This document shows positions 11,437-41,113 of a stretch of DNA of 41,507 bases, one piece after another. The translations under genes and the position numbers were made by a program. The stretch is from positions 7,855-49,361 of the forward strand of contig CAZGUR010000001.1 of NCBI GenBank assembly GCA_964529295.1. The letters are read 5' to 3'. How positions within the stretch are numbered: the first letter of the stretch is position 1; every line of letters starts with the position of its first letter. The notes under the pieces were generated by a model. That model was given only the letters and a program-made list of their open reading frames with translations. It made no database searches and was not told the DNA's origin. The stretch comes from an uncultured Rikenellaceae bacterium (GTDB lineage Bacteria > Bacteroidota > Bacteroidia > Bacteroidales > VadinHA17).

Positions 11437-11439
11437 AGT

Positions 11440-16567: not shown

Positions 16568-16583
16568 TAAAATTCTTAGAGAT

Positions 16584-22470: not shown

Positions 22471-23487
22471 TTACTTGTCGCTGACACTGGATCCCCTGAT
22501 AACCAGCTCGGTAGGGATAACCCTGCTCTGGTAAGGCCTGTTGCGGTCTTTTATCCTGTCCAGCATAAGCCTGGCAGCCTCCCTGCCCATATCATAACCA
22601 TGCTGGTCAATTGAGCTGAGTCCGGGATCAGTAAGCCTGGCTATCTGCCCGTTGGTAAAACCAACAAGAGCAACATCTTCGGGCACCCTGAACCCCAGCC
22701 TTTTAAGTATTTTCATTGTCTGCGCCGCAGTGAAATCATTGACACAGAAGAAAGCATCGGGCCTGGGACTCCTCTTCATAAGGCTGGGAACTATCCATTC
22801 GGCCTCCTCCGCCTGGTCACATTTCACAATGTTCTCCTCCGCAACATTGCACTGAAACTCATTAAGAGCCCTGATATAACCGTTGATCCTCTCCTGGGCA
22901 ATGAGCAGGTTGGGTGGCCCCGACAGGTGCACTATCCTCTTCCGGCCTTCCAGTATAAGGTGCTTGACGGCCATATAAGCACCCTCGGCATCGTCAACAA
23001 CAACACTGTCGCTTTCTATCTCCCTGCATTTCCTGTCAAAGAAAACAATGGGAATATTCTTTTCTTTCAGCTGGTGAAAATGCTCCATATTACGTGTCAG
23101 CTTCGACATTGAGATAAGTATACCGTCAACACGGCTGTTAATAAGGGTCTGTATACTCTTTACCTCCTTCTCATATTCTTCGTTCGACTGGCATATCATC
23201 ACATTATAAGCATACTCGTTGGCATAATCCTCTATGCCGCTTATCACCGATGAAAAGAAATAATGTATTATCTCGGGCACTATGATACCCACAGTGTTGC
23301 TGCTGCCTCCCTTAAGGCTCAGGGCAATGGGATTGGGACGGTAATTCCATTTCTCCGCCAGGCTGTTCACCAGCTTCTTGGTTTCAGGACTGATATCAGG
23401 ATGATCTTTCAGGGCCCTGGATACGGTTGAAGGAGCTATCTGCAGCTCCCTTGCAATATCTTTTATGGTAACATTTTCCTTATTCAT
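22471..23487 (-). CDS. LacI family transcriptional regulator of the adjacent alpha-glucan utilisation locus
   Basis: HTH 'VTIKDIARELQIAPSTVSRALKDHPDISPETKKLV' followed by a periplasmic-binding-protein-like sugar sensor domain. I prefer the start at 'MNKENVTIKD' (23487) over 23526. Divergent from susC. Confidence 0.9.
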   Translation of the reverse strand: MNKENVTIKDIARELQIAPSTVSRALKDHPDISPETKKLVNSLAEKWNYRPNPIALSLKGGSSNTVGIIVPEIIHYFFSSVISGIEDYANEYAYNVMICQSNEEYEKEVKSIQTLINSRVDGILISMSKLTRNMEHFHQLKEKNIPIVFFDRKCREIESDSVVVDDAEGAYMAVKHLILEGRKRIVHLSGPPNLLIAQERINGYIRALNEFQCNVAEENIVKCDQAEEAEWIVPSLMKRSPRPDAFFCVNDFTAAQTMKILKRLGFRVPEDVALVGFTNGQIARLTDPGLSSIDQHGYDMGREAARLMLDRIKDRNRPYQSRVIPTELVIRGSSVSDK

Positions 23488-23572
23488 AACCAGTTTAAAT
23501 AAGTGCCCTTCTGTAAAAGTAATCAAAAAATAATAATTACGTAATAATGATTTAACGGCCTTTAGCGCTAAT

Positions 23573-23788: not shown

Positions 23789-26700
23789 ATGAACAGATTA
23801 TTGATACGGCGCTTAATGATATTGATCGCCGGTGTAATGATGAGCAGTGCCCTTTTCGGACAAACAATCACTGTTTCCGGAACGGTTACTGATGCATTGG
23901 ATGGAATTACCTTGCCCGGAGTTAATGTTCTTGTTAAGGGAACAACTATGGGTACGTCCACCAATGCCGACGGTGAATACAGTATTACCACCACACCTGA
24001 TGCAATACTGGTATTCTCTTATATTGGTTATTTAGACCAGGAGATTCCAGTTGATAACCGCACTACCATAAATGTTGATCTGGAAGTCGATGTAATGGAA
24101 ATTGCTGAAGTTGTAACTATTGGTTATGGTACAGTTAAAAAGGAGGATGTAACAGGATCGGTATCAACGCTCAGCTCCAAAGATTTCAATCGCGGATCAA
24201 TTACATCAGCACAGGAACTGCTGGTGGGTAAGACAGCAGGTGTTGTCGTAACAACCTCGGGCGGAGCCCCGGGAAGCGGATCGACAATACGTATACGGGG
24301 AGGATCATCCCTGAATGCTTCCAATGACCCGCTGATAATTATTGATGGTGTTCCCATTGATAACAGTAATGTGTCGGGGAGCCCTAACCTGCTTGACTTT
24401 GTCAATCCCAATGATATTGAAACATTCACTGTTTTGAAGGATGCATCCTCAACAGCCATTTATGGTTCACGGGCATCGAATGGTGTGATTATTATCGAGA
24501 CAAAAAAGGCAAGTGAAGGAGCACCTCTTACAGTGAGATATGATGGCCGGACTTCGCTGGCCACAGCCATAAGATACACTGATGTTTTTTCAGGCGATGA
24601 AATAAGGCAGATAGCCTATGATAAAATTGACCTGTATGGTGCTGACACTTTTCAGAAGCTGGGATCGGAGAATACAAACTGGCAGGACAAAATATTCCGC
24701 ACAGCCGTTTCCCATGATCATAACCTCAGCCTCACAGGTGCATACAAGTTCCTGCCATACCGCTTCTCTGCAGGCTATACCGATCAGATGGGTATACTGA
24801 AAAACACTGATATGCAGAGGATAACCGGTGCACTAAGCCTCGACCCCATATTTTTTGACGGCTCTCTGAAGGTAAACCTTAAGCTCAAGGGTATGAGCAC
24901 TAAAAACAACTTCGGTGATGCAGGGGCTATAGGATCGGCGGTTAATATGGATCCTACCCAGCCGGTAATTGATCCAACACCGGCAACCGGATATTACTAC
25001 CAGTGGGGCAGCTATGGTGCCAATCTGGGTACCCCTAATCCCGTTGAGCAGGCCATGGAAATAGACAACCAGTCACAGGTCAACAGGATAATGGGTAATA
25101 TTATACTCAACTATTCTTTGCCCTTTATGCCTGAGCTGGAAGCCAATCTTAACCTGGCAACAGATTATTCACAGGGCGAAGGGCATAATAACCGTCCCGT
25201 AACATCGCCTTCAGTGCTGACGAGCCCTCTCTGGGGACGTCTGAGTGATTATTCATCCACCAACCAGAACAGCTTGCTCGATTTCTATCTGAATTATAAT
25301 AAGAGCCTGGAAGTGGTGGAGAGCAATGTGGATGTTACAGCCGGTTATTCATGGCAGCATTTCCAGAGGGAGGGAGATAACTACACCAGGGGAGTGGTTG
25401 ATGATGACCACCCTTACCAGGTTACTGATAGCAGTGCCTATATTACAGAGAACTACCTGGTCTCTTTTTTCGGCAGGGCAAACTATTCATTCAGGAATCG
25501 TTATTTGCTTACTGCAACAGTTCGTTTTGACGGCTCGTCACGTTTTGCCAGTGATAACCAGTGGGGGGTATTCCCGTCGGCCGCTTTTGCCTGGAGGATA
25601 AATGAGGAAAATTTCATGAGTGCTATCACTGCAATTTCCGAGCTTAAGCTCCGTCTGGGATGGGGTAAAACAGGTCAGCAGGATATAGGTAATGATTATC
25701 CGGCACAGGCAACATACATCCTATCATCACCAGGCTCTTACTATCCCATAGGTGGTGAGTATATGCCCACACTGAGACCCAATGCCTATGACCCGGACAT
25801 TAAATGGGAAGAAACCACAACCTATAACGCCGGTATTGATTTTGGACTTTATAATAACAGGGTTTCAGGTGCTGTAGATGTTTACCACAGGGTGACAAAC
25901 GACCTGCTGAACACAGTTGTTATACCAAGTGGAAGCAACTTCTCCAATACCCTGCTTACCAACGTGGGAAGTCTTGAAAACCAGGGTCTGGAGGTATCTT
26001 TGAATGCAGTGCCTCTGTCAAAGCAGGACTTTTCCCTGAGTGTGGGACTGAACTTTACCTATAACGTTAATACAATCACCAAACTTCTTATAACAGAGGA
26101 TCCTGATTATATAGGTATCCTGTACGGAGATGCCTTTACCGGTCAGAAGCAGGTAACAAGAGTGGGTCATCCTGCTTATTCATTCTTCCTTAACAAGCAG
26201 ATATATGATTCTGACGGCAATCCTGTAGAAGGATTATATGAAGATATCTCGGGCGAAGGCGGGGTGGTTAATGGTGATAATGATGATAAATACATCTACC
26301 ACAACCCCGTGCCTGATTACCTGCTGGGATTAACACTGAGGCTCAACTATAAGAATATTGATGCACTTGCTACCATGCGTGGAAGCATAGGTAACTATGT
26401 ATACAACCAGGTTGCGGCAGGTTCATCCTATGACCAGATGTACCAGATAGGTTACTGGAAAAACTTCCCTACCTACCTGAGAGAGACAGGCTTTGTTAAG
26501 AGGCAGTTTACAAGTGACTATTTCGTTGAGAATGCCTCTTATTTCAAACTGGATAACCTGAGCGTGGGATATACCATGGAAAATCTTTTCAATATGCTTA
26601 ACGCAAGATTAAGCATAACAGCTCAGAATCTGGTTACCATAACAGAGTACAGTGGTATCGATCCCGAAGTGCCGGGGGGTATAATGGGGTCTTGTGTAAA

Positions 26701-28258
26701 AGACCTTGACGTCGTACCACAGGATCCGGACCAGATACTGGCCGGCAATATTAATGACAAGCCTGAATACACAAAGCAGGTTCTTGGTAAGATATATGCC
26801 AGTTTCATTATAGCGGGTCAGGGACCTAACGGAGGACCGGATATCGAATCTTCTGATGCTAATTTTTTTACCACCATGCGTGCATTGTGGAACCTGCAGC
26901 AGCTGCCTACCGATGAGGCTATCTGTGCCTGGGGTGATGTTGGTATAGCCGAACTCAACACCCAGACATGGAGTCCATCCAATCCCTTCCTTACAGCTCT
27001 TTTCCAGCGCCTGAGCTTAAGTATTACCTACGCCAACGATTTTATCAGGCTTACAAATGATAATCCTGATGCCGATGTACAGCGTTATAATGCTGAAGCC
27101 CGCTTCCTCAGAGCCCTTGCATATTATTATGCAATTGATATGTTCGGTAAATTTCCTTTTACCACTGATGAAGACGGCGTAGGAAAATTCTTTCCTGAGA
27201 TACAGACCAGGGAATATATATTTAATTATATAGAGTCTGAGCTGATAGATATAAGCGATGAACTGGGCGAGCCGGGTTATGGATACCCGCAGGCCGATCA
27301 GGGTGCTGCATGGATGCTGCTGGCAAGACTTTATCTGAATGCTGAAGTTTATACCGGCACAACACGCTGGGGCGAGGTTAAGACCTATTGCGACAGCGTG
27401 ATAAACAGCGGTGCCTATTCGCTTGCCACTGACTACAGGCAAAACTTCAGTGCAGATAACGACTATTACAGTAATCCCGAAATGATCTTTGCCTGGGAAC
27501 AGGACGGGGTCAATACACAGGGTTATGTGGGAACAACATTTATTATTGAGTCAAGCAGTGATGCCGAATATATCAGGGCCGAAGATTATCACGGGCTTAC
27601 CGAGAATACCAACTGGAACGGTAACAGGGCAAGGATAGATTTCCTTGATGTGATGATTGACACCCTTGCTGCTTACGGCGGATCGCCAATTGATCCCACC
27701 GACCTTGAATTTGATGCTTCCCCTGATAACAGGGTCTTCCTCAAACAGAAGAAGACGCTTAATATACCAAGTGCATCATCAAGCGGTGATTATGGAGTGG
27801 GGGTATATAAGTTTACCGCAAGAAACCATGACGGCACATTGCCCGCTAATTATAATCCCGCCTTCGCCTGTACCGATTATCCTGTCTTCAGGCTGGCCGA
27901 TGCCTATATGATGAGAGCTGAAGCTTTCCATAAGCTGGGTGATGATGAGTCGGCCAAAGAGGATATCAACAAGATACTGGAACGGGCCTATGGCAATACC
28001 AGCGCCAATATATCAGCCGCAGAGGTAAGCGATGAGTTGATCCTTAATGAAAGGGCACGTGAGTTTTATTATGAAGGATTGCGCCGTACTGACCTGATAC
28101 GCTTCGATCAGTTCACTGACGGAACCTATACATGGCAGTGGAAAGGCGGTGTTTACGAAGGTACGCAGACAAGCAGCCATCTTAATATCTATCCCATACC
28201 TGCTGATGAGGTTTCTGCCAATCCGAATTATAATGGACAAAACAATCCGGGTTATTAA
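23789..28258 (+). CDS. SusC/RagA-type TonB-dependent transporter fused in frame to a SusD/RagB-type glycan-binding protein (fusion, deletion pseudogene or assembly artefact)
   Basis: One 1489-codon ORF.
- aa 1 to ~961 are SusC-like: carboxypeptidase-regulatory-like domain 'ITVSGTVTDALDGITLPGVNVLVKGT', plug 'VVTIGYGTVKKEDVTGSVSTL', a long barrel, and the near-C-terminal 'TEYSGIDPEV'.
- aa ~966-1489 are SusD-like: 'MGSCVKDLDVVPQDPDQIL', 'AEARFLRALAYYYAIDMFGKFP', 'RAREFYYEGLRRTDLIRF', 'NIYPIPADE'.
- No stop codon, intergenic spacer or SusD signal peptide lies between the two parts. Confidence 0.8.
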   Translation: MNRLLIRRLMILIAGVMMSSALFGQTITVSGTVTDALDGITLPGVNVLVKGTTMGTSTNADGEYSITTTPDAILVFSYIGYLDQEIPVDNRTTINVDLEVDVMEIAEVVTIGYGTVKKEDVTGSVSTLSSKDFNRGSITSAQELLVGKTAGVVVTTSGGAPGSGSTIRIRGGSSLNASNDPLIIIDGVPIDNSNVSGSPNLLDFVNPNDIETFTVLKDASSTAIYGSRASNGVIIIETKKASEGAPLTVRYDGRTSLATAIRYTDVFSGDEIRQIAYDKIDLYGADTFQKLGSENTNWQDKIFRTAVSHDHNLSLTGAYKFLPYRFSAGYTDQMGILKNTDMQRITGALSLDPIFFDGSLKVNLKLKGMSTKNNFGDAGAIGSAVNMDPTQPVIDPTPATGYYYQWGSYGANLGTPNPVEQAMEIDNQSQVNRIMGNIILNYSLPFMPELEANLNLATDYSQGEGHNNRPVTSPSVLTSPLWGRLSDYSSTNQNSLLDFYLNYNKSLEVVESNVDVTAGYSWQHFQREGDNYTRGVVDDDHPYQVTDSSAYITENYLVSFFGRANYSFRNRYLLTATVRFDGSSRFASDNQWGVFPSAAFAWRINEENFMSAITAISELKLRLGWGKTGQQDIGNDYPAQATYILSSPGSYYPIGGEYMPTLRPNAYDPDIKWEETTTYNAGIDFGLYNNRVSGAVDVYHRVTNDLLNTVVIPSGSNFSNTLLTNVGSLENQGLEVSLNAVPLSKQDFSLSVGLNFTYNVNTITKLLITEDPDYIGILYGDAFTGQKQVTRVGHPAYSFFLNKQIYDSDGNPVEGLYEDISGEGGVVNGDNDDKYIYHNPVPDYLLGLTLRLNYKNIDALATMRGSIGNYVYNQVAAGSSYDQMYQIGYWKNFPTYLRETGFVKRQFTSDYFVENASYFKLDNLSVGYTMENLFNMLNARLSITAQNLVTITEYSGIDPEVPGGIMGSCVKDLDVVPQDPDQILAGNINDKPEYTKQVLGKIYASFIIAGQGPNGGPDIESSDANFFTTMRALWNLQQLPTDEAICAWGDVGIAELNTQTWSPSNPFLTALFQRLSLSITYANDFIRLTNDNPDADVQRYNAEARFLRALAYYYAIDMFGKFPFTTDEDGVGKFFPEIQTREYIFNYIESELIDISDELGEPGYGYPQADQGAAWMLLARLYLNAEVYTGTTRWGEVKTYCDSVINSGAYSLATDYRQNFSADNDYYSNPEMIFAWEQDGVNTQGYVGTTFIIESSSDAEYIRAEDYHGLTENTNWNGNRARIDFLDVMIDTLAAYGGSPIDPTDLEFDASPDNRVFLKQKKTLNIPSASSSGDYGVGVYKFTARNHDGTLPANYNPAFACTDYPVFRLADAYMMRAEAFHKLGDDESAKEDINKILERAYGNTSANISAAEVSDELILNERAREFYYEGLRRTDLIRFDQFTDGTYTWQWKGGVYEGTQTSSHLNIYPIPADEVSANPNYNGQNNPGY

Positions 28259-28278
28259 CCGCTAAAAAACAATTTATA

Positions 28279-29304
28279 ATGAAAAGAAAATTATATATAT
28301 TATTTGCAATCATAGGGTTGATAGCCTTCTTCACCTCATGTGAAAAAGACGGTGAAAGGATTGTCATGCTTGATAACCCTGTTGATCCTGCTCTTGTAAG
28401 CATGCCCGACCTTACCCTGGTCAGGTCAGAAGCTAATGATACACTGGAGTTTGTCGGCACACCCGTGGACCCGGGCTTCACCGCCTCTGCAAACTATTTT
28501 CTGCAGGCATGTCCCACGGGCACTGACTTTGAAGAAGTAAGCGAAGTATGGTCAGGTAATGATGTAACATCCATCAAACTTACGGTTGGTGAGCTGAATG
28601 GTCAGCTGAAAAAGGACTTTCCGGCGGACCAGGTTTCTACCATCGACTTCAGGATTAAGGCAGTGCTGGTTGTAGATGCCGGTACCGGCTCACCCGGTAC
28701 AAGCACCGATCCTTTTGAGTACTTCTCTGATCCCCTTACTGCCGATGTTACCATATACGGTCTGCCAAGGCTCGACCTGGTGAACTCGGGTAAAGAACAA
28801 AAGGTTGAATCCGCACTCGGCGATGGCGTTTATACAGGTATTGTAAAGCTTGATCCGGCCAGTCCCTTCACCCTTAACAATCCTGATACAGGTACCTCCT
28901 ATGGTGGATCAGGTGGTACACTTGATGTCGACGGACCGGCAATAGTGCCTCCCGCCGAAGGTTACCATGTAATGGATGTGAGCGTGACCGATCTGACTTA
29001 TTCCTTCGAAGCAAGGATGATAGGCCTGGTAGGCTCAGCAACACCTAACGGATGGGATTCACCCGATCAGAAAATGGACTATGACCAGGATTCCGGAACA
29101 TGGAATATAACAGTCGACCTGGTGGTCGGAGAGATCAAGTTCAGGCTTAATGACGGCTGGGCATGGAACCTGGGGGGAACAGAAGATGAGCTGTACCACG
29201 ATGGTCCCAATATCCAGATAAGCGAAGCCGGAAACTATACCATTATCCTTAATATAACAGACTTTGAGGGTGAAGAGGCTACATTCAGCATTGTTAAGAA
29301 TTAA
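28279..29304 (+). CDS. SusE-like outer-membrane starch-binding lipoprotein
   Basis: 341 aa. Lipobox 'AFFTSC'. SusE-type N-domain ('...TLEFVGTPVDPGFTASANYFLQA'). C-terminal starch-binding module 'GLVGSATPNGWDSPDQKM...GEIKFRLNDGWAWNLGG'. Confidence 0.8.
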   Translation: MKRKLYILFAIIGLIAFFTSCEKDGERIVMLDNPVDPALVSMPDLTLVRSEANDTLEFVGTPVDPGFTASANYFLQACPTGTDFEEVSEVWSGNDVTSIKLTVGELNGQLKKDFPADQVSTIDFRIKAVLVVDAGTGSPGTSTDPFEYFSDPLTADVTIYGLPRLDLVNSGKEQKVESALGDGVYTGIVKLDPASPFTLNNPDTGTSYGGSGGTLDVDGPAIVPPAEGYHVMDVSVTDLTYSFEARMIGLVGSATPNGWDSPDQKMDYDQDSGTWNITVDLVVGEIKFRLNDGWAWNLGGTEDELYHDGPNIQISEAGNYTIILNITDFEGEEATFSIVKN

Positions 29305-29318: not shown

Positions 29319-30872
29319 GTGATGAAAAAGACAATTATATATAAATACGTAGCGGCACTTACTGTAATGGTGGCAGTACTTGTGGCCTGTACGGAGGAGA
29401 CGGCACAGGTAAGACTGGATCCTAAGCTGGCAACATCAGAGATTGAAGGTGTTAGCTCCGACCAGGCAACAGTGATAGGCTTCGTGATTGCCGAGGGTGC
29501 CGGTTTTACGGAAAGGGGTGTCTGCTATGATACCCTTAGCGAGCCAACTATTGATAATAATAAGGCCGTTTTCACAGACCGGTTGGAAGGTGCAACCTTT
29601 AAAGTAACCCTTACCGGGCTTGATTATGCAACTGACTATTATGCAAAAGCATATGCAACAGGCAAAGGGGGTACCATATACGGTGAGGAAGTGACTTTCA
29701 CAACCCGCCCTGTAGTGCCTGTCGTTACAACTGCTGAGATAACGGATATATCATATACCTCGGCAACAGGCGGAGGTGAAGTAACTGTATCGGGCGGTGC
29801 GGATGTGACAGCAAGGGGCCTGTGCTATTCCACGAGTGAGAATCCCACTGTCAGTGACCAGACAACAAGTGACGACGATGGTATGGGTGCCTTTACCAGT
29901 TCTCTGACTGGACTGGACGACGGCACAATGTATTATGTGCGCGCCTATGCAACAAACAGTGCAGGCACGGGATACGGACCCGAGCTTACATTTACCACCC
30001 TGGTACCGCTGGACCGTACCTGGAACCTGCCAGGCGACTATGTAGAGGCAAGTTATCCCGGATCAGGCATGACCAACTGGTCTCCCGACAATTCACCACA
30101 GGTGAAGAGCGGACTCTCAGCTCCCGATAACCTGGAAGGATATGTCTATATGGCCAACGCTTCCAACCAGTGGAAATTTGCAACAAAGCCTAACTGGGAT
30201 GGTCCCAACTACGGAGATGGAGGAGGTGGAACACTGAGCGAATCAGGTGGTAATATGGTATCGCCTGCGGGTTATTATTTAATACGGGCTGATGCCGCTG
30301 CAATGACCTTCAGTGCTGTTGATATGATCTGGGGTGTTGTGGGTAGTGCAACACCGGGTGACTGGAGTGCCGACACACCCCTTGAATACCAGCCTGAAAT
30401 AATGAAATGGACAGGAGGAGTACACTTCATTTCGGGTGAATTTAAGTTCAGGGCCAATGACAACTGGGATTATAACTACGGCAGCTCGGCCGGGAACGAT
30501 ACACTCAACGCAGGTGGTGATAACATCGCGGTAGCCGTTGAAGGTGATTATGCCATTACCCTCGACCTGAGCAAACCGCTGCAGTATACATACAGGGCCG
30601 ATATGTGGGGTATAATAGGATCTGCAACACCCGGCGAATGGAGCACAGATACCGATATGGCATGGGATCCCGTGGGCGGGGTGTTTACCGCTACCCTCGA
30701 CCTTGTAGCAGGTGAGATAAAGTTCAGGGCTAATGATGCCTGGGACTATAACCTTGGAGGTGATCCCGGAACACTTGAACCGGGAGGCTCAAATATTGCC
30801 GTTACAACGGCCGGCAACTATACAATAACTCTCGATCCATGGAATCTTGTTGCGACAGTGACCATGAATTAG
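29319..30872 (+). CDS. SusF-like outer-membrane lipoprotein with two Fn3-like repeats and three starch-binding modules
   Basis: 517 aa. Lipobox 'VLVAC'. Two tandem ~95-aa repeats ('GVCYDTLSEPT...YYAKAYATGKGGTIYGEEVTFTT' and 'GLCYSTSENPT...YYVRAYATNSAGTGYGPELTFTT'). Three modules follow, with 'WKFATKPNWDGPNYG', 'GVVGSATPGDWS...GEFKFRANDNWDYNYG' and 'GIIGSATPGEWS...GEIKFRANDAWDYNLGG'. Confidence 0.8.
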   Translation: MMKKTIIYKYVAALTVMVAVLVACTEETAQVRLDPKLATSEIEGVSSDQATVIGFVIAEGAGFTERGVCYDTLSEPTIDNNKAVFTDRLEGATFKVTLTGLDYATDYYAKAYATGKGGTIYGEEVTFTTRPVVPVVTTAEITDISYTSATGGGEVTVSGGADVTARGLCYSTSENPTVSDQTTSDDDGMGAFTSSLTGLDDGTMYYVRAYATNSAGTGYGPELTFTTLVPLDRTWNLPGDYVEASYPGSGMTNWSPDNSPQVKSGLSAPDNLEGYVYMANASNQWKFATKPNWDGPNYGDGGGGTLSESGGNMVSPAGYYLIRADAAAMTFSAVDMIWGVVGSATPGDWSADTPLEYQPEIMKWTGGVHFISGEFKFRANDNWDYNYGSSAGNDTLNAGGDNIAVAVEGDYAITLDLSKPLQYTYRADMWGIIGSATPGEWSTDTDMAWDPVGGVFTATLDLVAGEIKFRANDAWDYNLGGDPGTLEPGGSNIAVTTAGNYTITLDPWNLVATVTMN

Positions 30873-31034: not shown

Positions 31035-32870
31035 ATGATAAGAATAGTACTTTTTATGGCAGCGATTTTAACTACTATGCTGAGCACAGCCCAGATCGAC
31101 AGAGTGGAGCCACCTTTCTGGTGGACAGGGATGAAGAACCCCTCTCTCCAGCTTATGGTTCATGGTGAGGATATTGCCGACTGCAGGATCAATATTAATC
31201 ACCCCGGTGTCAGCCTTGTCTCGGTTGACCGCACTACAAACAACAACTACCTCTTTATTAACCTTGACATAGGCCCCGCCACTCAACCGGGCACAATCAA
31301 TATTGAATTCAGGAAAGGGGGTGATGTGGTATATACACATGATTATGAGCTGCTACGGAGACAGGGAGGTTCGGCTGAAAGGAAGGGTTTTGATAACTCC
31401 GATGTTATGTACCTGCTGATGCCCGACAGGTTTGCCAACGGTGATCCATCCAACGATGAGGTAGAAGGGATGAAGGAAGGACTGAATCGCCGCAAACGCT
31501 ATGGCAGGCATGGGGGCGATATAAAAGGAATAAGTGATCATATCGCTTATATCGCGGATATGGGTTTTACAGCTATCTGGCTTAACCCCGTGCTTGAGAA
31601 TGATATGGCAGAATGGTCATATCATGGCTATGCTGCAACTGATTTCTATAAGGTGGACAGGCGCTTCGGGACAAACAGCGAATATGTTGAAATGATTGAG
31701 GAAGCACAGGCCAAAGGCCTTAAGGTTATAATGGATATGATCTTTAATCACTGCGGTCTCAGCCACTGGTGGATGGATGACCTGCCTTCCGAAGACTGGC
31801 TCAGCTACCCTGAATATGTGCCTACCAATCACAGGCGTACGGTGAACCAGGATCCCTATGCCTCGGACTACGATAAGGAGAGGATGACCCGCGGATGGTT
31901 TGTTGAAGCCATGCCCGACCTGAACCAGGAGAATCCCTTTATGGCCGAATACCTTATACAGAACAGTATATGGTGGATCGAATATGCCGGCCTCTCTGGC
32001 ATACGAATGGACACCTACCCCTATCCTGATAAGCATATGATGGCCGAATGGAACAGAAGGGTGCTTAATGAATATCCTCACTTTAATATAGTTGGCGAGG
32101 AATGGAGCCTTAACCCGGCAATAGTGTCATACTGGCAGAAAGGACAGGATAACAGGGACGGCTACGATGGTGAACTGCCATCGCTGATGGACTTTCCGCT
32201 GCAAAACGCCGTCAGCGAAGCATTGAATGATGATGAGGGCTGGGAGGACGGACTGGTAAAAATATACGAGATGCTGGCTAACGACTTCCTCTACCCCGAT
32301 CCCTTTAACCTGGTGGTTATGCCGGATAATCATGATATGCCAAGGTTCTATATGCAGATGGATATGGACCGCGACCTTTACCGCAATGGCATCGTCTTCT
32401 TTCTCACCACAAGGGGTATACCGCAGATATATTACGGTAGCGAAATACTGATGACCCATAAGGAAGGAGATGACCATGGATATATACGCAAGGACTTCCC
32501 GGGAGGATGGCCGGGTGACAAGGTCAATGCCTTTACAGGTGAAGGCATGGGCCGCGAAGAGAGAAATATGCAGAACATGTTCAAACGATTGCTTAACTGG
32601 AGAAAAACGGCTGAAGTTATACACAGGGGTAAACTGAAACAATTTGCTCCCGAACATGGCACTTATGTCGTTTTCAGGTATAATAATGATGATATGGTGA
32701 TGGTTATACTCAACAAGAATTCTTCGGCTTATGAACTTGACCTGAAACGTTTCAGTGAGATGCTCGGGGATAAGAAGACTGCCCGTGAAGTGCTTGGCGG
32801 AAGGGAATATAAGCTTGAGGAAACAATCACCCTGTCACCGCGTAAACCATATATACTGGAGATAAAATAA
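31035..32870 (+). CDS. GH13 alpha-glucosidase family enzyme, SusA-like cyclomaltodextrinase/neopullulanase (predicted periplasmic)
   Basis: 611 aa with a signal peptide. The cyclomaltodextrinase N-domain signature 'VEPPFWWTGM' is present. GH13 regions are I 'DMIFNHCG', II 'GIRMDTYPY', III 'IVGEEW' and IV 'MPDNHDMPR'. Confidence 0.85.
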   Translation: MIRIVLFMAAILTTMLSTAQIDRVEPPFWWTGMKNPSLQLMVHGEDIADCRININHPGVSLVSVDRTTNNNYLFINLDIGPATQPGTINIEFRKGGDVVYTHDYELLRRQGGSAERKGFDNSDVMYLLMPDRFANGDPSNDEVEGMKEGLNRRKRYGRHGGDIKGISDHIAYIADMGFTAIWLNPVLENDMAEWSYHGYAATDFYKVDRRFGTNSEYVEMIEEAQAKGLKVIMDMIFNHCGLSHWWMDDLPSEDWLSYPEYVPTNHRRTVNQDPYASDYDKERMTRGWFVEAMPDLNQENPFMAEYLIQNSIWWIEYAGLSGIRMDTYPYPDKHMMAEWNRRVLNEYPHFNIVGEEWSLNPAIVSYWQKGQDNRDGYDGELPSLMDFPLQNAVSEALNDDEGWEDGLVKIYEMLANDFLYPDPFNLVVMPDNHDMPRFYMQMDMDRDLYRNGIVFFLTTRGIPQIYYGSEILMTHKEGDDHGYIRKDFPGGWPGDKVNAFTGEGMGREERNMQNMFKRLLNWRKTAEVIHRGKLKQFAPEHGTYVVFRYNNDDMVMVILNKNSSAYELDLKRFSEMLGDKKTAREVLGGREYKLEETITLSPRKPYILEIK

Positions 32871-32890: not shown

Positions 32891-35674
32891 ATGAAAAAAA
32901 CTCTGCTGATATCATTTGTATTAATTATTTCTCTCCGCCTGCAGGCGCAGCTGATCGAGACAGATCCACCGATTGTAACGACGGGTCAGCCCATTACCGT
33001 ATACTTTAACAGCAATGAGGAAACAGGTGCACTTCAGAATTTTGAAGGCGACCTTTATGCACATACAGGCGCAATAATTGAAGGCAACAGTGCCTGGCAG
33101 AATGTTATAGGGAGCTGGGGCAACAATACAACACAGCCTCAACTTACCTACCTGGGCAACTACAGGTATCAACTGGATATAAGTCCGTCCATAGAGGAGT
33201 TTTACCCTGACATGACGGGCGATGAAAAGGTAATCAGGCTGGCTTTTGTGTTCCGCAACGCTTCCGCTGACCTGCAAACGGCCGACCTGTTCATTGATGT
33301 CTTTGAACCCGGTCTTAATGTCAATATAACAACACCGGGGGAAGAGGCAGTAATAAGGGACCTGAATGAAGACCTGCCCCTGGAAGCTTCTGCTACCGGC
33401 GCTGATTCACTTGTGCTCTTTATCGATGGGGAAAGGATAATGAAAAGCACTGATCCCGATTATCTTTCATACACCGTTCCGGCTGATACCTACGGGGGCA
33501 GGTGGATAAGGGTGGATGCCTGGGATTTGTCGGGGACCGTTGCTGACTCAGTGTATATGTATGTTATTGATGAACCGCTGACAGAAGAACTGCCCGCCGG
33601 CCTGATTGATGGCATAAACTATTTGAGCGATGATTCGCTTGCACTGGTTCTGACAGCGCCGGGAAAGGATAATGTTTTTGTACTGGGCGATTTCAATGAC
33701 TGGATCATGAGTGATGGGGGCTATATGAAAAAGACACCCGGCGGCGAAAAATTCTGGATAGGGATAGGGAGCCTTAACCCGGGACAGGAATACCGTTTCC
33801 AGTACCTTGTCGATGGCAATATAAGGATAGGCGATCCCTATTGCGAAAAGGTGCTCGATCCGTGGAACGACCAGTATATATCTGATGAAACGTATCCCGG
33901 ACTCATAGCTTATCCCGAAGGGAAAACGAATGGACTGGTGTCGGTGTTGCAGACAGCCGAGCCTGAGTACGAATGGACCGTTACTGACTTTCAAAGGCCG
34001 GCGAAGGAAGACCTGGTGATCTATGAACTGCTGATGCGCGACTTCCTGGATACACATCACTACCTTACCCTTATCGATACACTCGACTACCTGCAGAACC
34101 TGGGTGTCAATGCCATTGAACTGATGCCGGTGAACGAATTTGACGGGAACCTGAGCTGGGGATATAACCCGGCCTACTACCTGGCGCCCGACAAGTATTA
34201 CGGTACAAAAAATGACCTGAAGGCACTGATCGATTCATGCCACAGAAGGGGGATAGCCGTGATCCTTGATGTGGTGCTTAACCACTCAACGGGCTCATCC
34301 CCGATGGCACAGCTTTACTGGGATGATGCCGCCAATAATGTCACAGCCGATAACCCCTGGTACAATGTTAGCGCAACACATGAATTCAATGTGTTCCACG
34401 ATTTTAACCATGAGAGTGAATATACGCGAGAATTTTCGCGAAGGGTGATGCAGCACTGGATAGAGGAATATAAGGTGGATGGCTACCGCTTCGACCTGTC
34501 CAAGGGATTTACCCAGAATAATACCCTGGGTGATGTGGGGGCCTGGGGTGCCTACGATCCCACACGGGTGGATATATGGAAGTTATATGCCAACTATATA
34601 TGGTATCTGGATCCCTCTTTCTATGTCATCCTCGAACATTTTGCCGATAATACCGAGGAAAAAGAGCTGGCTGAGTACGGTATGATGCTATGGGGCAATA
34701 TGAATCACGGCTACTCGGAGCTGTCAATGGGCTATGATGCGGATATACAGGGTGTATCCTATCTTGAGAGGGGATGGAATGCCCCCCACCTGGTGTCTTA
34801 TATGGAGAGTCATGACGAGGAGAGATTACAGTATCTCAATAAGAACTTCGGCAGAACATCGGCAGCCTACAGTATACGGTACCTCAGTACGGGTCTCGAC
34901 AGGCTGGTGCTGGCAGCGTCATTTTTCTTTACCGTGCCCGGACCAAAAATGCTCTGGCAGTTCGGGGAACTGGGCTATGATTTTTCAATAGATTATAACG
35001 GCCGTACGGGGGACAAACCCATACGCTGGGATTATTTTGAGATCACTGAAAGGAGGCGCGTTTATGAGCTGTTTGCAGCCCTTATTAAGCTGAAAAAAGA
35101 AAATGAAGCCTTCTCTTCTTCTGATTTTGAGATTGTTGACGGGGGATTGCAAAAGCGAATAAAGATAAACCACGAATCAATGGATGTTATCGTTGTGGGT
35201 AATTTTGATGTTGAGCAGGGCTCTGTCAGCGGCGACTTCCACAATAGCGGCCGCTGGTACGAATTTTTCACGGGCGACTCCATTGATATTGATGATACCC
35301 AGGAAGTGCTGACACTCGGGCCCGGCGAATATCGTATATACACATCGCAGAGACTTGAGACACCCAGTCTGTCAGTGGGTATAGACGACATACCGGGAGG
35401 CGGTCGCGATGAGCTGCCTGTCACTGTCTGGCCCAACCCTGTGCGCCACAGGCTGCATATAGAGCGTTATGATATGGACAGGGGCAGGGCTATGGATATA
35501 CTGGTAATGGATACCTCGGGACGGCCACTGCTGTCAGAGAAAGGTCACACAGGTAACTATATAGACGTCACAGCGCTGCCACGCGGTATGTACCTTATAA
35601 ATATAAGCTCTGGTAACAGTTCAGGTGGCATCTCGCCCACCCGCTCATCCACCCGCCGGTTTATAAAGCTGTAA
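32891..35674 (+). CDS. Multidomain GH13 alpha-amylase/pullulanase-like enzyme with a T9SS C-terminal sorting domain
   Basis: 927 aa with a signal peptide. It has an E-set/CBM48-like module 'VFVLGDFNDW'. GH13 regions are I 'DVVLNHST', II 'GYRFDLSKG', III 'VILEHF' and IV 'YMESHDEER'. The C-terminal ~85 aa 'VTVWPNPVRHRLHIE...LPRGMYLINISSGNS...RRFIKL' are typical of the Por/T9SS CTD. Confidence 0.85.
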   Translation: MKKTLLISFVLIISLRLQAQLIETDPPIVTTGQPITVYFNSNEETGALQNFEGDLYAHTGAIIEGNSAWQNVIGSWGNNTTQPQLTYLGNYRYQLDISPSIEEFYPDMTGDEKVIRLAFVFRNASADLQTADLFIDVFEPGLNVNITTPGEEAVIRDLNEDLPLEASATGADSLVLFIDGERIMKSTDPDYLSYTVPADTYGGRWIRVDAWDLSGTVADSVYMYVIDEPLTEELPAGLIDGINYLSDDSLALVLTAPGKDNVFVLGDFNDWIMSDGGYMKKTPGGEKFWIGIGSLNPGQEYRFQYLVDGNIRIGDPYCEKVLDPWNDQYISDETYPGLIAYPEGKTNGLVSVLQTAEPEYEWTVTDFQRPAKEDLVIYELLMRDFLDTHHYLTLIDTLDYLQNLGVNAIELMPVNEFDGNLSWGYNPAYYLAPDKYYGTKNDLKALIDSCHRRGIAVILDVVLNHSTGSSPMAQLYWDDAANNVTADNPWYNVSATHEFNVFHDFNHESEYTREFSRRVMQHWIEEYKVDGYRFDLSKGFTQNNTLGDVGAWGAYDPTRVDIWKLYANYIWYLDPSFYVILEHFADNTEEKELAEYGMMLWGNMNHGYSELSMGYDADIQGVSYLERGWNAPHLVSYMESHDEERLQYLNKNFGRTSAAYSIRYLSTGLDRLVLAASFFFTVPGPKMLWQFGELGYDFSIDYNGRTGDKPIRWDYFEITERRRVYELFAALIKLKKENEAFSSSDFEIVDGGLQKRIKINHESMDVIVVGNFDVEQGSVSGDFHNSGRWYEFFTGDSIDIDDTQEVLTLGPGEYRIYTSQRLETPSLSVGIDDIPGGGRDELPVTVWPNPVRHRLHIERYDMDRGRAMDILVMDTSGRPLLSEKGHTGNYIDVTALPRGMYLINISSGNSSGGISPTRSSTRRFIKL

Positions 35675-35771
35675 GCACCGGCCCGGCAGCCCTGCCAACC
35701 TCTTAAACACAGGCTTATAAGGCTGTGGCACCATTCTCAACCCCAGACGGGTTTATATAGCTGTGAGCACC
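35658..35771 (+). repeat. Three direct copies of a ~22-bp motif (GGYTTATAWRGCTGTRRGCACC) spanning the convergent gene ends
   Basis: ggtttataaagctgtaagcacc (35658-35679), ggcttataaggctgtggcacc (35712-35732) and ggtttatatagctgtgagcacc (35750-35771). Copy 1 contains the stop of the plus-strand GH13 gene. Copy 3 contains the stop of the minus-strand GH13 gene. Confidence 0.6.
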
Positions 35772-37132
35772 AGGTAAGACCAGCCCTCGAGCAGCAGTGT
35801 ATTATTATTGCCTATGCTGATATTTTCGCCGCTGAAATAATCACTGTACTCATCACCTACATCTGTGTTTACAGAAAACTCGGCAGCCTCATCATCAAAA
35901 TTGATAACGACAATGACGATATTATCATCTTTCTCCCTTTTATAGCCGTACACATTGGCGTCGCCACTGATATTGAGGGCCCTGAATGAGCCGCCGCTGG
36001 TGCCGTTATGCAAAGCCTCGTTATCTTCTTTCAGGCTGTTAAGCGAGGTGTAGAAATCGCGCAGGTATGAATCGTGCCACTCAATAGGATCCCTGTCAAA
36101 AAATTCCAGCCTCTTGTTAAGACCGGCCTCCTGCCCGTTATAGATCAGCGGCACGCCGGGTATGGTGTACATAAAGACGGCAAAAGCCTCGTGTGCCCCA
36201 CCCATCCTTTCCTCTATGGTGCCGGCCCATGAATTCTCATCATGGTTGGTGATAAAACGCAGCCTGTAAGCATGTTCGGGGTAGCGCTCCTCATCCTGTG
36301 TTATCGCCCTGTGCAGCTCCTGTGCTGTTTCTTCGCCCTGTGCCACCCTGTTCATATGGTGATGCAGCTCCCATGAATAGTTTATATCGAAGCCGTTCTC
36401 AAAAAACTCCACCCTGTCCTCGTTCTCTGCCAGCATAAGCACCGGCTTCACCTTCTCCATAGCCAGCCTGGCCTCCAGCCAGAAGTCGGCGGGGGTGACA
36501 TGCGGGTGGTCCACCCTGTAGCCGTCAACATCCAGCTCCTTAACCCAGTAGAGCAGGGCTTCCTGCATATATTCCTGCAGCCCCTCATTGCTCCAGTCAA
36601 ACTGTATCACATCGGTCCAGTCATAGGGCGAGACAAAGCTGCCTGTCGAATCTTTTACATACCATTCGGGGTGCTCCTCCGCCAGGTGGTTATCCCACGA
36701 TGAGTGGTTGGGCACCCAGTCCATCATAACGTACATCCCTGCCTCGTGTATGCTGCTGACCAGCGACCTGAAATCATCCGTATCACCGAACTCGGGATTC
36801 ACATCCCTGAAGTCGCGTACCGAATAATATGATCCCAGCGGTCCCTTGCGATTAAGCTCACCTATGGGATGTATGGGCATAAACCATATCACGTCCACCC
36901 CCAGGTCCGCCAGCTCATCCACCCTCTCCTCCACGGCACTGAAGGTGCCCTCATCTGAGAACTGTCTCACATTAAGCTCGTACAATACAATATCATCACT
37001 CCATTCGGGCGCTGCGTAAGGTCGTCCCTCCTCTTTGGGCGTATCATTATCCACTCCACCGCATGCTGCCAGCAGCACTGCCAGCATTATGGCTATTATA
37101 ATCTGTGATAATCCTGCTCTTAGCTTTTTCAT
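35753..37132 (-). CDS. GH13 alpha-amylase family lipoprotein
   Basis: 459 aa. Lipobox 'LLAAC'. GH13 regions are I 'DWVPNHSS', II 'GYRVDHPHV', III 'MLAENE' and IV 'FITNHDENS'. Confidence 0.85.
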   Translation of the reverse strand: MKKLRAGLSQIIIAIMLAVLLAACGGVDNDTPKEEGRPYAAPEWSDDIVLYELNVRQFSDEGTFSAVEERVDELADLGVDVIWFMPIHPIGELNRKGPLGSYYSVRDFRDVNPEFGDTDDFRSLVSSIHEAGMYVMMDWVPNHSSWDNHLAEEHPEWYVKDSTGSFVSPYDWTDVIQFDWSNEGLQEYMQEALLYWVKELDVDGYRVDHPHVTPADFWLEARLAMEKVKPVLMLAENEDRVEFFENGFDINYSWELHHHMNRVAQGEETAQELHRAITQDEERYPEHAYRLRFITNHDENSWAGTIEERMGGAHEAFAVFMYTIPGVPLIYNGQEAGLNKRLEFFDRDPIEWHDSYLRDFYTSLNSLKEDNEALHNGTSGGSFRALNISGDANVYGYKREKDDNIVIVVINFDDEAAEFSVNTDVGDEYSDYFSGENISIGNNNTLLLEGWSYLVLTAI

Positions 37133-37227
37133 ATGTCTGTTATTTTATTTACTGTTTATCTGTGATCTGCGCCTTGCCCTTACAGTTATATTTATACTTA
37201 TACTAACAATTTCCCTTGCCATTCTGA

Positions 37228-39543: not shown

Positions 39544-39601
39544 AAATTCTGTACCTTCCGTGAATTAATAAATATTTTCGTCGCTCAAGCATACCCCTTG
39601 C

Positions 39602-41113
39602 TTATTCAATGGTGTCCCTTACAAACAGTATGAGCACGGCGGCTATCACAAGCGCTATGCCGCCTATCAGCAGTGCATATACCGCCTCGCCCTTAAACAG
39701 TGTCTTTACCATAAACCCCAGTATGGTGGCCGCCAGTATCTGCGGTATAACAATGAAGAAGTTGAATATACCCATATAAACACCCATCTTGTTTGATGGC
39801 AGCGATCCCGTCAGTATGGCATAGGGCATGGCCAGTATGCTGGCCCATGCCAGTCCCACGCCCAGCATGGAGAATATCATATGCTGCGGGTTGCCAATTA
39901 TATAAATGGATGCCAGACCTATACCGCCTGCTATAAGCGCTATGGAATGTGTTATCTTACGGTTGAACACCCTTGCCAGGAAGGGCAGCAGCAGCAGCCC
40001 GAAGACGGCTGCGAAGAGGTTATACCAGCCGAACATGCCGCTGACAAGGTTGGCTCCTTCGTTATACAGTATTGATGTAGTGTCGGAGGTACCGTAAATA
40101 CGAGCTGTTACGGCTGCCGTGGTGTATATCCACATTGAGAAGAGCGCAAACCATGAGAAGAACTGCACCACGGCCAGCTGCCCCATGGTCAGCGGCATCC
40201 TGTACAGGTCTGTTATTATGCTTACCAGTCCCGACCGCTCCCTGCCGAGATGAACATACAGGGCGCTGATAAGCTGCAGTATGCCAAAGACAGCCAGTCC
40301 GCCCGCAAGTATATAAAGCTCTTTCTCCAGCCTGAAAAATATGATGGGCAGGGTGAGGAGGGCGCCCACGATGGTCCAAATAAGCCCCCTCTTTAAATAT
40401 TTCCCCGGCGGCTCCACCGAAAATGTTTCGGGCGGACGGTGCGGGTGGTCGCTGCGGTCAAACTCCGCCAGCTCTTCAGGTGAATATTCCTTCGTGGAGA
40501 ACACGGTGTATGCCACTGCGAGGAAAAATACTATCCCGCCCAGGTAGAATGAGTATTTCACTGTGTCAGGTATCTGTCCGGCCGGCGCCGTATTGGATAT
40601 ATTAAACCAGTTGGTCAGTATATAGGGAAGCCATGAGGCCACAAAGGCACCTATACCGATAAAGAAGCTCTGCATGGTGAAGCCCAGGGTACGCTGGCGG
40701 TCGGGCAGCATATCGCCCACAAAAGCCCTGAAGGGCTCCATGGATATGTTAATGGAGGCATCCATTATCCACAGCATGCCCACCGCTATCCACAGGGCCG
40801 GCGAGTTGGGCATCAGTATCAGAGCTATGGATGCCAGTATGGCACCAGTAAGGAAGTAGGGACGCCGCCGTCCCAACCGTCCCCATGTTTTATCGCTCAT
40901 ATGTCCCACTATGGGCTGCACTATGAGTCCGGTCACCGGGGCTGCTATCCATAATATGGGTATCCTGTCAATATCGGCTCCCAGGGTCTGGAATATCCGG
41001 CTCACATTGCCGTTCTGCAGTGCAAAGCCAAACTGTATACCCAGGAAGCCAAAGCTCATATTCCATATCTGCCAGAAACTGAGCCTGGGTTTCATCTTTA
41101 TGCTGTCACTCAT
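39602..41113 (-). CDS. MFS sugar:cation symporter (SLC45/GPH-like, probable maltose/maltodextrin importer)
   Basis: 503 aa with about 12 TM helices. 'SFWQIWNMSFGFLGIQFGFALQNGNVSRIF' and 'GHMSDKTWGRLGRRRPY' match the SLC45-type MFS family commonly found next to GH65/GH13 genes in Bacteroidota. Confidence 0.85.
   Translation of the reverse strand: MSDSIKMKPRLSFWQIWNMSFGFLGIQFGFALQNGNVSRIFQTLGADIDRIPILWIAAPVTGLIVQPIVGHMSDKTWGRLGRRRPYFLTGAILASIALILMPNSPALWIAVGMLWIMDASINISMEPFRAFVGDMLPDRQRTLGFTMQSFFIGIGAFVASWLPYILTNWFNISNTAPAGQIPDTVKYSFYLGGIVFFLAVAYTVFSTKEYSPEELAEFDRSDHPHRPPETFSVEPPGKYLKRGLIWTIVGALLTLPIIFFRLEKELYILAGGLAVFGILQLISALYVHLGRERSGLVSIITDLYRMPLTMGQLAVVQFFSWFALFSMWIYTTAAVTARIYGTSDTTSILYNEGANLVSGMFGWYNLFAAVFGLLLLPFLARVFNRKITHSIALIAGGIGLASIYIIGNPQHMIFSMLGVGLAWASILAMPYAILTGSLPSNKMGVYMGIFNFFIVIPQILAATILGFMVKTLFKGEAVYALLIGGIALVIAAVLILFVRDTIE

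What the first reader, a model, noticed from the sequence alone, without database searches (positions are those of the whole stretch)
23789..28258. SusC and SusD encoded as one uninterrupted 1489-codon ORF
What the sequence shows:
- The ORF reads through from a complete-looking SusC/RagA transporter into a complete-looking mature SusD, with no stop, spacer or second signal peptide.
- The SusC part ends at the conserved near-C-terminal 'YSGIDPEV' (nt 26648-26671).
- A G6 run (26674-26679) follows, and then the text switches to 'MGSC-VKDLDVVPQDPDQIL...'. That is exactly how a mature SusD lipoprotein begins (lipobox Cys, nt 26693-26695, then DLDxxP).

What is missing:
- Canonical SusC proteins carry roughly 30-45 more residues after 'DPE' (the final extracellular loop plus the terminal beta-strand ending in an aromatic).
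- SusD normally has its own ~20-aa lipoprotein signal peptide.
- Both are absent, so about 150-200 bp that normally separate the genes are not present, and the junction is in frame.

Interpretation (inference):
- The break falls where strand 21 should emerge on the extracellular face, so a covalently tethered SusD lid is topologically conceivable. A 21-strand barrel lacking the BAM-recognised C-terminal strand would be unprecedented.
- More mundane explanations are a deletion pseudogene or an assembly or consensus error at the homopolymer.
Basis: partly seen in the sequence, partly recalled or inferred. Interest (0 to 1): 0.7.

Follow-up and report, generated by a model that had tools for sequence, protein, structure and literature searches.

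The report
susC–susD fused by 118-bp deletion
A single 118-base deletion, seen in no relative, has welded two neighbouring starch-uptake genes (susC and susD) into one long reading frame that lacks parts both proteins need, so it is most likely a fresh knockout or an assembly error and not a new kind of transporter.

Summary

Compared with the closest syntenic relatives (L001, 94% aa identity; L002, 85%), the window lacks exactly 118 bp. The gap is flanked by a 3-bp microhomology (ATA, 26681-26683). It removes:
- the last 19 codons of susC (DNNFYPRPRTFMFGISLTY, i.e. half of the last loop plus terminal barrel strand 22 with its aromatic end);
- the stop codon and the 10-bp spacer;
- the first 15 codons of the susD signal peptide.

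The G6 run is native and has the correct length.

The fusion is a singleton:
- 76 of 76 orthologous loci have separate genes with the deleted tail strongly conserved.
- No fused protein appears among the best hits of two searches of 5.8 billion proteins.
- The one apparent fusion among 1.84 billion representatives (P0278) is a spliced gene-model artefact.
- The junction sequence is absent from the genome and metagenome collections.

There is no secondary decay: dN/dS is about 0.10 and the window branch shows no acceleration. The event is therefore very recent, or an artefact.

Best reading: a recent loss-of-function deletion (about 0.6). Rivals: an assembly or library artefact (about 0.3) and a functional tethered SusCD (about 0.04). 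Only the reads can separate the first two. Interest is low.

The parts
23789..28258 (+). Fused susC-susD ORF, 1489 aa. The database's own gene call starts at the 10th codon (23816) and gives 1480 aa (P0246).
23789..26680 (+). SusC-derived part (aa 1-964): signal peptide, CarboxypepD_reg-like domain, plug, and barrel strands 1-21 with the first half of the last loop. It lacks ortholog residues 966-984, which are the rest of the loop and strand 22.
26674..26679 (+). G6 run. It is native, because an identical run is present in the intact ortholog L001. It is not the site of an error.
26681..26683 (+). Deletion junction. The ATA (Ile965) is the 3-bp microhomology present at both ends of the 118-bp segment that relatives carry (L001 8893-9010).
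26684..28258 (+). SusD-derived part (aa 966-1489). It begins with MGS, the remnant of the lipobox. Cys969 (26693-26695) is the former +1 lipidated Cys, followed by VKDLD, a motif like the lipoprotein export signal. The first 15 residues of the signal peptide are missing.
22471..23526 (-). LacI-family regulator, divergently oriented upstream of the PUL. The ORF is listed from a TTG start, but the orthologs are 337-338 aa, so the true start is probably downstream.
28279..29304 (+). SusE-like outer-membrane lipoprotein. It is intact, at 341 aa as in the orthologs.
29319..30872 (+). SusF/SusE-like protein. It is intact, at 517 aa as in the orthologs.
31035..32870 (+). GH13 cyclomaltodextrinase/neopullulanase-type enzyme.
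32891..35674 (+). GH13 alpha-amylase with a T9SS C-terminal sorting domain. It probably acts as the surface or secreted amylase of the PUL.
35753..41113 (-). Three genes on the minus strand: a GH13 enzyme (35753-37132), a GH65 maltose-phosphorylase-type enzyme (37228-39543) and an MFS sugar transporter (39602-41113). Together they form the cytoplasmic and inner-membrane arm of the maltodextrin pathway.

Best explanation
An ordinary starch/maltodextrin-type susC-susD pair has suffered one recent 118-bp deletion, flanked by a 3-bp microhomology.

What was lost: the deletion spans the 3' end of susC, its stop codon, the 10-bp spacer and the 5' end of susD. In relatives susD lies in the +1 frame relative to susC, and 118 = 3n+1, so the two genes now read as one ORF.

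Expected fate of the product (inferred):
- It would be exported by the SusC signal peptide.
- It lacks barrel strand 22 and the C-terminal beta-signal (G-x-x-hydrophobic-x-aromatic end) that BamA pairs with, so the barrel should neither be assembled nor close.
- The SusD moiety has lost its own signal peptide. Its Cys is now internal (aa 969) and cannot be lipidated or recognised as the +1 Cys of a surface lipoprotein.

The allele is therefore most likely a double knockout of glycan import in an otherwise intact PUL, a pseudogene in the making.

Shown: the deletion, its exact content, its uniqueness, the conservation of what was lost and the absence of later decay. Inferred: loss of function, and that the deletion exists in the organism and not only in the assembly.
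For: The deletion and its content:
- Exact 118-bp gap relative to L001 and L002, with ATA at both ends.
- Lost peptides are DNNFYPRPRTFMFGISLTY* and MKKKVIILGIIISAT.
- The 118 bp occur nowhere else in the window.

What the lost SusC tail is:
- The ortholog tail aligns to the C-terminus of solved SusC 8aa4_A, residues 12-997 of 999.
- The AF2 model of the intact ortholog puts strand 21 at 937-955, the loop at 956-974 and strand 22 at 975-983. The model matches SusC structures.
- 9 of the 19 lost SusC residues are invariant and 3 nearly invariant in 48 orthologs.
- A PSSM of the last 11 residues scores native tails at +25.5 to +43.4 bits. The best score near the junction is -10.8 bits.

Uniqueness:
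- 76 of 76 orthologous loci keep the tail, a stop codon, a spacer and a SusD signal peptide of their own. None is fused.
- No fused relative appears.
- The junction has 0 hits.

Quality of the surrounding sequence:
- The neighbouring genes have ortholog lengths.
- Every other indel against L001 over 14 kb is intergenic or a multiple of 3, apart from a 4-nt indel at the 3' end of the ROK gene (18682), so the assembly is not noisy.

Recency:
- dN/dS is 0.11 for susC and 0.10 for susD, like the neighbours.
- The window branch shows no excess of changes: 18 vs 26 in susC and 6 vs 9 in susD.

Biogenesis:
- BamA templates on the C-terminal strand of its substrates, and SusC is a 22-strand OMP (PMC12611786).
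- The lipoprotein export signal works only at a fixed distance from the +1 Cys of a lipoprotein, and a non-lipidated variant is not surface-exposed (PMC5080379).
Against: - No reads and no independent assembly of this organism could be examined. Window proteins are not indexed outside the window's own record. A real deletion therefore cannot be told apart from an assembly or library artefact.
- The perfectly intact 4.4-kb ORF, under apparent purifying selection, is also what a functional fusion or an artefact would show.
- Loss of function is inferred from general OMP and lipoprotein biogenesis. It was not tested.
Confidence: 0.6

Rival explanations
1. Assembly or library artefact. The organism has normal, separate susC and susD genes. 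The 118-bp gap arose during sequencing or assembly, for example from a chimeric or jumped amplification product, a local misassembly, or selection of a minority deletion haplotype during bubble resolution in a metagenome assembly.
For: - The fusion is seen in only one record.
- The ORF shows no decay at all, as expected if the true genes are intact.
- The closest relatives are all metagenome-assembled genomes, so the source is probably one too. This last point is an inference.
Against: - The gap is flanked by only 3 bp of identity, and L001 has no flanking direct repeat of 10 nt or more. K-mer collapse therefore does not explain it.
- The G6 run has the same length as in the intact relative.
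- No other frame-breaking indel occurs in about 14 kb of comparison, so the consensus is not noisy.
- The segment has no unusual hairpin potential (z = -0.24).
Confidence: 0.3
2. Functional single-chain SusCD. The fused protein is made and inserted, with SusD covalently tethered to the last extracellular loop of a 21-strand or otherwise closed barrel, and it works as a lidded transporter.
For: - The fusion is in frame and both moieties are otherwise complete and under purifying selection.
- The break is in an extracellular loop, so SusD would be on the correct side of the membrane if the barrel formed.
Against: - No relative shares the fusion.
- The only look-alike, P0278, is a gene-model artefact.
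- The deleted strand and beta-signal are strongly conserved, and no substitute motif exists.
- An in-frame outcome is expected for 1 in 3 random deletions.
- The purifying-selection signal predates the event and says nothing about the fused state.
- No natural SusC-SusD fusion is reported in the searchable literature.
Confidence: 0.04

Closest known systems
Canonical SusC/SusD (RagA/RagB) pairs of Bacteroidota polysaccharide utilization loci. Solved examples are the B. thetaiotaomicron dextran and levan utilisome SusC (8AA4, 8AA0, 6ZAZ family) and BT2261-2264 (5FQ6-8).
   Same: - Domain order is the same: CarboxypepD_reg-like domain, plug, barrel, then a SusD TPR-like fold.
- The locus has a starch-type PUL context: LacI regulator, SusE/F-like proteins, GH13 enzymes, GH65 and MFS.
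- It is 94% identical to an intact ortholog pair in L001.
- The model of the intact ortholog (P0001) matches these SusC structures.
   Different: The two genes are joined. SusC lacks the last 19 residues (strand 22 and the beta-signal). SusD lacks the first 15 residues of its lipoprotein signal peptide.
Deletion-generated fusion pseudogenes (chimeric ORFs formed by loss of an intergenic region)
   Same: - A single microhomology-flanked deletion spans a stop codon and a start codon.
- The event is a singleton and is not conserved.
- It removes essential terminal elements of both partners.
   Different: No secondary lesions have accumulated yet. It is either very young or not real in the organism.
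Spurious SusC-SusD 'fusion' proteins in databases, such as P0278 (1583 aa, GCA_016746295.1)
   Same: The protein looks the same at the sequence level: the SusC barrel runs into SusD just before the lipobox Cys, and the terminal strand is missing.
   Different: In P0278 the DNA is intact, and a 91-nt 'intron' was spliced out by the gene model. In the window the DNA itself lacks the segment.
Inverse autotransporters (intimin/invasin type). This comparison rests on my own knowledge and serves only as an analogue for the tethered-passenger idea.
   Same: An N-terminal outer-membrane barrel is followed in the same chain by a surface-exposed C-terminal domain.
   Different: In those proteins the barrel is complete and the chain passes back through the pore. 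Here the barrel is one strand short and has no terminal beta-signal. No homology is implied.

Membership tests
SusC/RagA TonB-dependent transporter (TIGR04056) | Whole-protein score above the curated cut-off, plus the SusC/RagA signature motif (TIGR04057) | tested here: met
   TIGR04056 scores 772.7 bits against a cut-off of 368.25. TIGR04057 scores 62.2 against 46.2.
SusC/RagA TonB-dependent transporter (TIGR04056) | N-terminal extension, plug and beta-barrel domains in that order | tested here: met
   PF13715 at aa 29-109, PF07715 at aa 117-233 and PF00593 at aa 400-948.
SusC/RagA TonB-dependent transporter (TIGR04056) | Complete 22-strand barrel ending in the C-terminal strand with a terminal aromatic residue (beta-signal) | tested here: not met
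   - The profile match stops at position 961 of 981.
- Ortholog residues 966-984 are deleted, which includes strand 22 at 975-983.
- No substitute motif exists.
SusD/RagB surface lipoprotein (PF07980 / PF14322) | SusD_RagB domain above the Pfam gathering score | tested here: met
   PF07980 scores 95.2 bits against a cut-off of 23.1. PF14322 scores 25.5, just under its cut-off of 27.
SusD/RagB surface lipoprotein (PF07980 / PF14322) | Own N-terminal lipoprotein signal peptide, with the lipobox Cys becoming residue +1 | tested here: not met
   Fifteen of the 19 residues that precede the Cys are deleted. The Cys is internal residue 969 and follows hydrophilic SusC loop sequence. In contrast, 79 of 79 orthologs have the signal peptide.
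SusD proper (NF033071, the starch-binding SusD of B. thetaiotaomicron) | Score above the curated cut-off | tested here: not met
   373.4 bits against a cut-off of 725. It belongs to the SusD family and sits in a starch-type PUL, but it is not the NCBIfam 'SusD' exception-level match.
Evolved (conserved) gene fusion | The same fused architecture recurs in orthologs from other genomes | tested here: not met
   - 0 of 76 orthologous loci are fused.
- 0 of the 120 best hits is fused in each.
- 1 of the 150 best representatives spans the junction, and it is an artefact.
- The junction sequence has 0 hits.
Pseudogene by deletion | A lesion relative to intact orthologs that removes essential parts | tested here: met
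   118-bp gap. The lost residues are invariant or nearly invariant.
Pseudogene by deletion | Signs of relaxed selection or further decay | tested here: not met
   dN/dS is about 0.10, there are no further frameshifts or stops, and the window branch is not accelerated. This is consistent only with a very recent event.
Pseudogene by deletion | The lesion is present in the organism's DNA (supported by reads) | not testable with these tools
   No reads and no independent assembly of this organism are available.

The most novel reading that the evidence does not exclude
The fused ORF encodes a working single-chain SusCD transporter. SusD would be covalently hinged to the last extracellular loop of a SusC barrel that assembles without its canonical 22nd strand and C-terminal beta-signal. 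That would be a freshly born architecture caught at its origin.
Probability: 0.03. Interest if true: 0.85.

Novelty: new member of a known kind. Interest (0 to 1): 0.15.

Why it matters
Biologically, if the deletion is real, it is a natural double knockout of glycan import in an otherwise intact starch PUL of an uncultured Bacteroidales lineage. That is a small example of ongoing gene loss, not a new mechanism.

Practically, it shows how one such chimeric ORF contaminates resources. The 90%-identity protein cluster that holds this ORF merges bona fide SusC and SusD proteins into a single cluster. A second 'fusion' in the databases proved to be a spliced gene-model artefact. Anyone mining databases for SusC-SusD fusions should check the DNA first.

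Tried and rejected
- Homopolymer error at the G6 run: rejected, because the intact relative has the same G6.
- Frameshift read-through: rejected, because the other two frames are closed and hold no SusC tail. The tail is absent from the whole window.
- Rearrangement or inversion: rejected, because the 118 bp are not found elsewhere in the window.
- Conserved fusion family: rejected after two protein-database searches, one exhaustive HMMER search, 80 metagenome loci and three junction-pattern scans.
- P0278 as an independent natural fusion: rejected, because its DNA has the normal stop, spacer and signal peptide. It also has no fused relatives.
- Hairpin-mediated deletion: a perfect 9-nt inverted repeat lies inside both ends of the lost segment. 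However, the segment folds no better than shuffled sequence (z = -0.24), so this is not supported.
- Recombination tract or chimeric join at the junction: identity to L001 is 0.95-0.98 in the windows around the junction and 0.93-0.97 across susD, with no discontinuity there.
- AlphaFold model of the fused protein: not run. The chain (1489 aa) exceeds the 1200-aa limit. For a truncated construct, MAFFT forces the ortholog tails onto SusD-derived residues (A3), which would bias the model towards a false surrogate strand. The tool also returns no coordinates from which to judge lid geometry.
- Independent assemblies of the same organism: five exact-protein look-ups returned nothing.
- Literature: no paper in the searchable library contains phrases for a SusC-SusD fusion.
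Full report
**Observation.**
The window carries one uninterrupted ORF at 23789..28258 on the + strand, with an ATG start and 1489 codons. YSGIDPEV lies at 26648-26671, a G6 run at 26674-26679 and the Cys codon at 26693-26695. The other two forward frames are closed around the junction and hold no SusC tail.

Pfam finds a CarboxypepD_reg-like domain, a plug and a TonB-dependent barrel, followed by SusD-like_3 and SusD_RagB. NCBIfam TIGR04056 (SusC/RagA) matches aa 27-964, which is profile positions 1-961 of 981, at 772.7 bits. The SusD model NF033071 starts at aa 966, at profile position 19. The SusC part therefore stops about 20 positions short of its end, and the SusD part starts at about the lipobox.

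**What is missing, exactly.**
The 120 best relatives among 5.8 billion proteins are all standalone SusC proteins of 937-1023 aa. The closest is P0001, at 94% identity and 984 aa. It lies on L001, a Bacteroidales MAG contig (GCA_046497595.1), in the same gene order as the window:
- LacI regulator (minus strand)
- susC, 984 aa
- 10-bp spacer
- susD, 540 aa
- SusE-like, 341 aa
- a 517-aa protein
- an amylase

L002 (85% identity) has the same layout.

The DNA alignment shows that the window lacks exactly 118 bp that both relatives carry. The gap lies between ...CCGGGGGGT and ATAATGGGGTC, and the triplet ATA is present at both ends. The lost sequence encodes:
- the last 19 residues of SusC (DNNFYPRPRTFMFGISLTY) and the stop codon;
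- the 10-bp spacer;
- the first 15 residues of SusD (MKKKVIILGIIISAT).

In L001 susD lies in the +1 frame relative to susC, and 118 = 3n+1, so the deletion puts the two genes in frame. The arithmetic closes: 984 + 540 - 35 = 1489. The 118 bp are not found anywhere else in the window, so this is a deletion and not a rearrangement. The G6 run is identical in the intact L001, so it is not an error site.

**What the lost pieces are.**
The intact ortholog aligns to solved SusC 8aa4_A through residue 997 of 999. An AlphaFold2 model of the ortholog has mean pLDDT 61.5 and pTM 0.60, with the last 20 residues at pLDDT 69-81. Its best structural matches are SusC chains. The model places strand 21 at 937-955, the last loop at 956-974 and strand 22 at 975-983. 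The deletion covers ortholog residues 966-984, so it removes half of the final extracellular loop and the whole terminal strand, including the G-x-x-L-x-Y end.

Among 48 orthologs, 9 of the 19 lost residues are invariant and 3 nearly invariant. On the SusD side only (I)MGS remains in front of the Cys. That Cys is now internal residue 969 and is preceded by hydrophilic SusC loop sequence.

**Is the fusion found anywhere else?**
No.
- *Orthologous loci.* I fetched 80 loci (L003-L082) from metagenomes; 78 of them, together with L001 and L002, were surveyed. All 76 with enough upstream sequence show three things. SusC ends in DPE-x4-5-DNNFYPRPRTFM-G----[YF]* (one locus ends in Leu). A spacer follows, mostly 10-21 nt. 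SusD then has a Met-initiated signal peptide of about 20 aa ending in ...SC or ...AC. None is fused.
- *Junction-spanning protein query.* A 307-aa query across the junction found no protein covering more than 54% of it.
- *Junction DNA.* The junction has 0 matches in the genome and metagenome collections, whether searched as exact DNA or as any DNA encoding DPEVPGGIMGSCVKD.
- *Exhaustive HMMER search.* A junction-centred 924-aa query against 1.84 billion cluster representatives returned one protein among the best 150 that crosses the junction: P0278, 1583 aa. Its sequence looks much like the window's case. However, its gene spans 4843 nt where 4752 are needed. The DNA of L083 shows a normal SusC end (...GMDYMGYPKSRTFLFGINVSI*), a spacer and a complete SusD signal peptide (MNKLLKLVCGLSVVSLWVGC). 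P0278 is a spliced gene-model artefact, and it has no fused relatives.
- *Window's own record.* A 1480-aa member (P0246) of the 90% cluster of P0001 is identical to the window ORF from its 10th codon. Its accession is masked, so it is the window's own record, an NCBI contig of 49,361 bp.
- *Independent assemblies.* Exact-product look-ups of five window proteins returned nothing. No independent assembly of this organism is available.
- *Literature.* The searchable literature holds no report of a SusC-SusD fusion.

**Age and quality.**
The window and L001 differ by about 8-15% at the nucleotide level. Across about 14 kb of shared sequence every other indel is intergenic or a multiple of three, apart from a 4-nt indel at the 3' end of the ROK gene (18682). 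The 118-bp gap is the only disruptive coding lesion, so the consensus is not error-ridden.

dN/dS is 0.11 for the susC part and 0.10 for the susD part, within the range of the neighbouring genes (0.06-0.21). With L002 as outgroup, the window branch carries no excess of amino-acid changes: 18 vs 26 in susC and 6 vs 9 in susD. The event has therefore left no trace of relaxed selection. It is either very recent or not present in the organism at all.

The mechanism shows nothing special. There are only 3 bp of microhomology and no flanking direct repeat. The segment has no unusual hairpin potential (z = -0.24).

**How it most likely works, or fails.**
The following rests on established outer-membrane biogenesis.
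- The fused product keeps the SusC signal peptide, so it should reach the periplasm. It has no terminal strand or beta-signal.
- Nothing downstream can substitute. A PSSM of the last 11 residues scores native tails at +25.5 to +43.4 bits, against a best of -10.8 bits within 140 residues of the junction.
- SusD-type proteins reach the surface as lipoproteins. The export signal (optimal form C-X-K-(D/E)2-X) works only at a fixed distance from the +1 Cys, and a non-lipidated variant is not exposed (PMC5080379).
- Here CVKDLD is retained, but the Cys is internal. Lipidation cannot occur because there is no preceding signal peptide. This last point is an inference.

The most likely outcome is loss of both SusC and SusD function. 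The rest of the PUL stays intact: SusE/F-like proteins, three GH13 enzymes, GH65, MFS and the LacI regulator. An in-frame outcome is expected for one random deletion in three, so it carries no weight.

**Verdict.**
- The homopolymer-error idea is wrong.
- The tethered-lid idea is not supported. The fusion is a singleton and lacks elements that are strongly conserved in every relative.

Confidence that this is a one-off, deletion-derived chimera and not an evolved fusion is about 0.95. Within that, a real recent deletion (about 0.6) and an assembly or library artefact (about 0.3) cannot be separated without the reads. Interest is low. The main practical lesson is that such chimeric ORFs, and spliced gene models like P0278, create false SusC-SusD 'fusions' and merge unrelated families in protein clusterings.

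Noticed in passing
window 23816-28255 (P0246) and its 90%-identity protein cluster: The fused ORF acts as a bridge in the protein clustering. One 90% cluster contains both genuine SusC proteins (975-984 aa) and genuine SusD proteins (540-543 aa). The chimera propagates into a database artefact.
   Followed up: partly
L083 5001-9843 (GCA_016746295.1, JAEAOA010001427.1): P0278 is a 1583-aa 'SusC-SusD fusion' in the representative library. It comes from a gene model that splices out 91 nt containing the susC stop codon, the spacer and the susD start. The DNA encodes two normal genes. The contig looks bacterial (Bacteroidota-type PUL genes), yet the gene model is spliced in the eukaryotic style.
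   Followed up: yes
window 23789-29304 compared with L001: Synonymous divergence from L001 is clearly lower in susC, susD and susE-like (dS 0.29, 0.19, 0.23) than in the flanking genes (0.40-0.55). Nucleotide identity reaches 0.93-0.97 across susD. Possible causes are codon-usage constraint in very highly expressed genes, or a more recent exchange of the PUL core between the two lineages.
   Followed up: no
window 16527-17549 and 17713-18684: Two tandem ROK-family glucokinase-like genes lie just upstream of the PUL region. The first starts 41 nt inside the end of the 702-aa Big_5-domain ORF (14459-16567).
   Followed up: no
window 32891-35674: A 927-aa GH13 alpha-amylase carries a T9SS C-terminal sorting domain (Por_Secre_tail). 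The PUL's extracellular amylase therefore appears to be exported by the type IX system and is not a SusG-like lipoprotein.
   Followed up: no
window 10088-12549 (minus strand): A methionine-salvage-like trio: a PNP/MTAP-type phosphorylase (10088-10837), a class II aldolase-like protein (10837-11436) and an IF-2B-family methylthioribose-1-phosphate isomerase-like protein (11440-12549).
   Followed up: no
window 5105-9841 (minus strand): An ECF sigma factor (6350-6895) is flanked by ORFs with no Pfam match (5105-6346, 6900-7613, 9062-9841). A 456-aa ORF (7670-9040) has only sub-threshold multihaem cytochrome hits.
   Followed up: no
window 13461-14261 (minus strand): This is Lgt, the prolipoprotein diacylglyceryl transferase. 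It is the enzyme that would normally lipidate the SusD Cys that the deletion has stranded inside the fused chain.
   Followed up: no
whole window: No tRNA genes and no Rfam family reach the gathering threshold in the 41.5 kb.
   Followed up: yes
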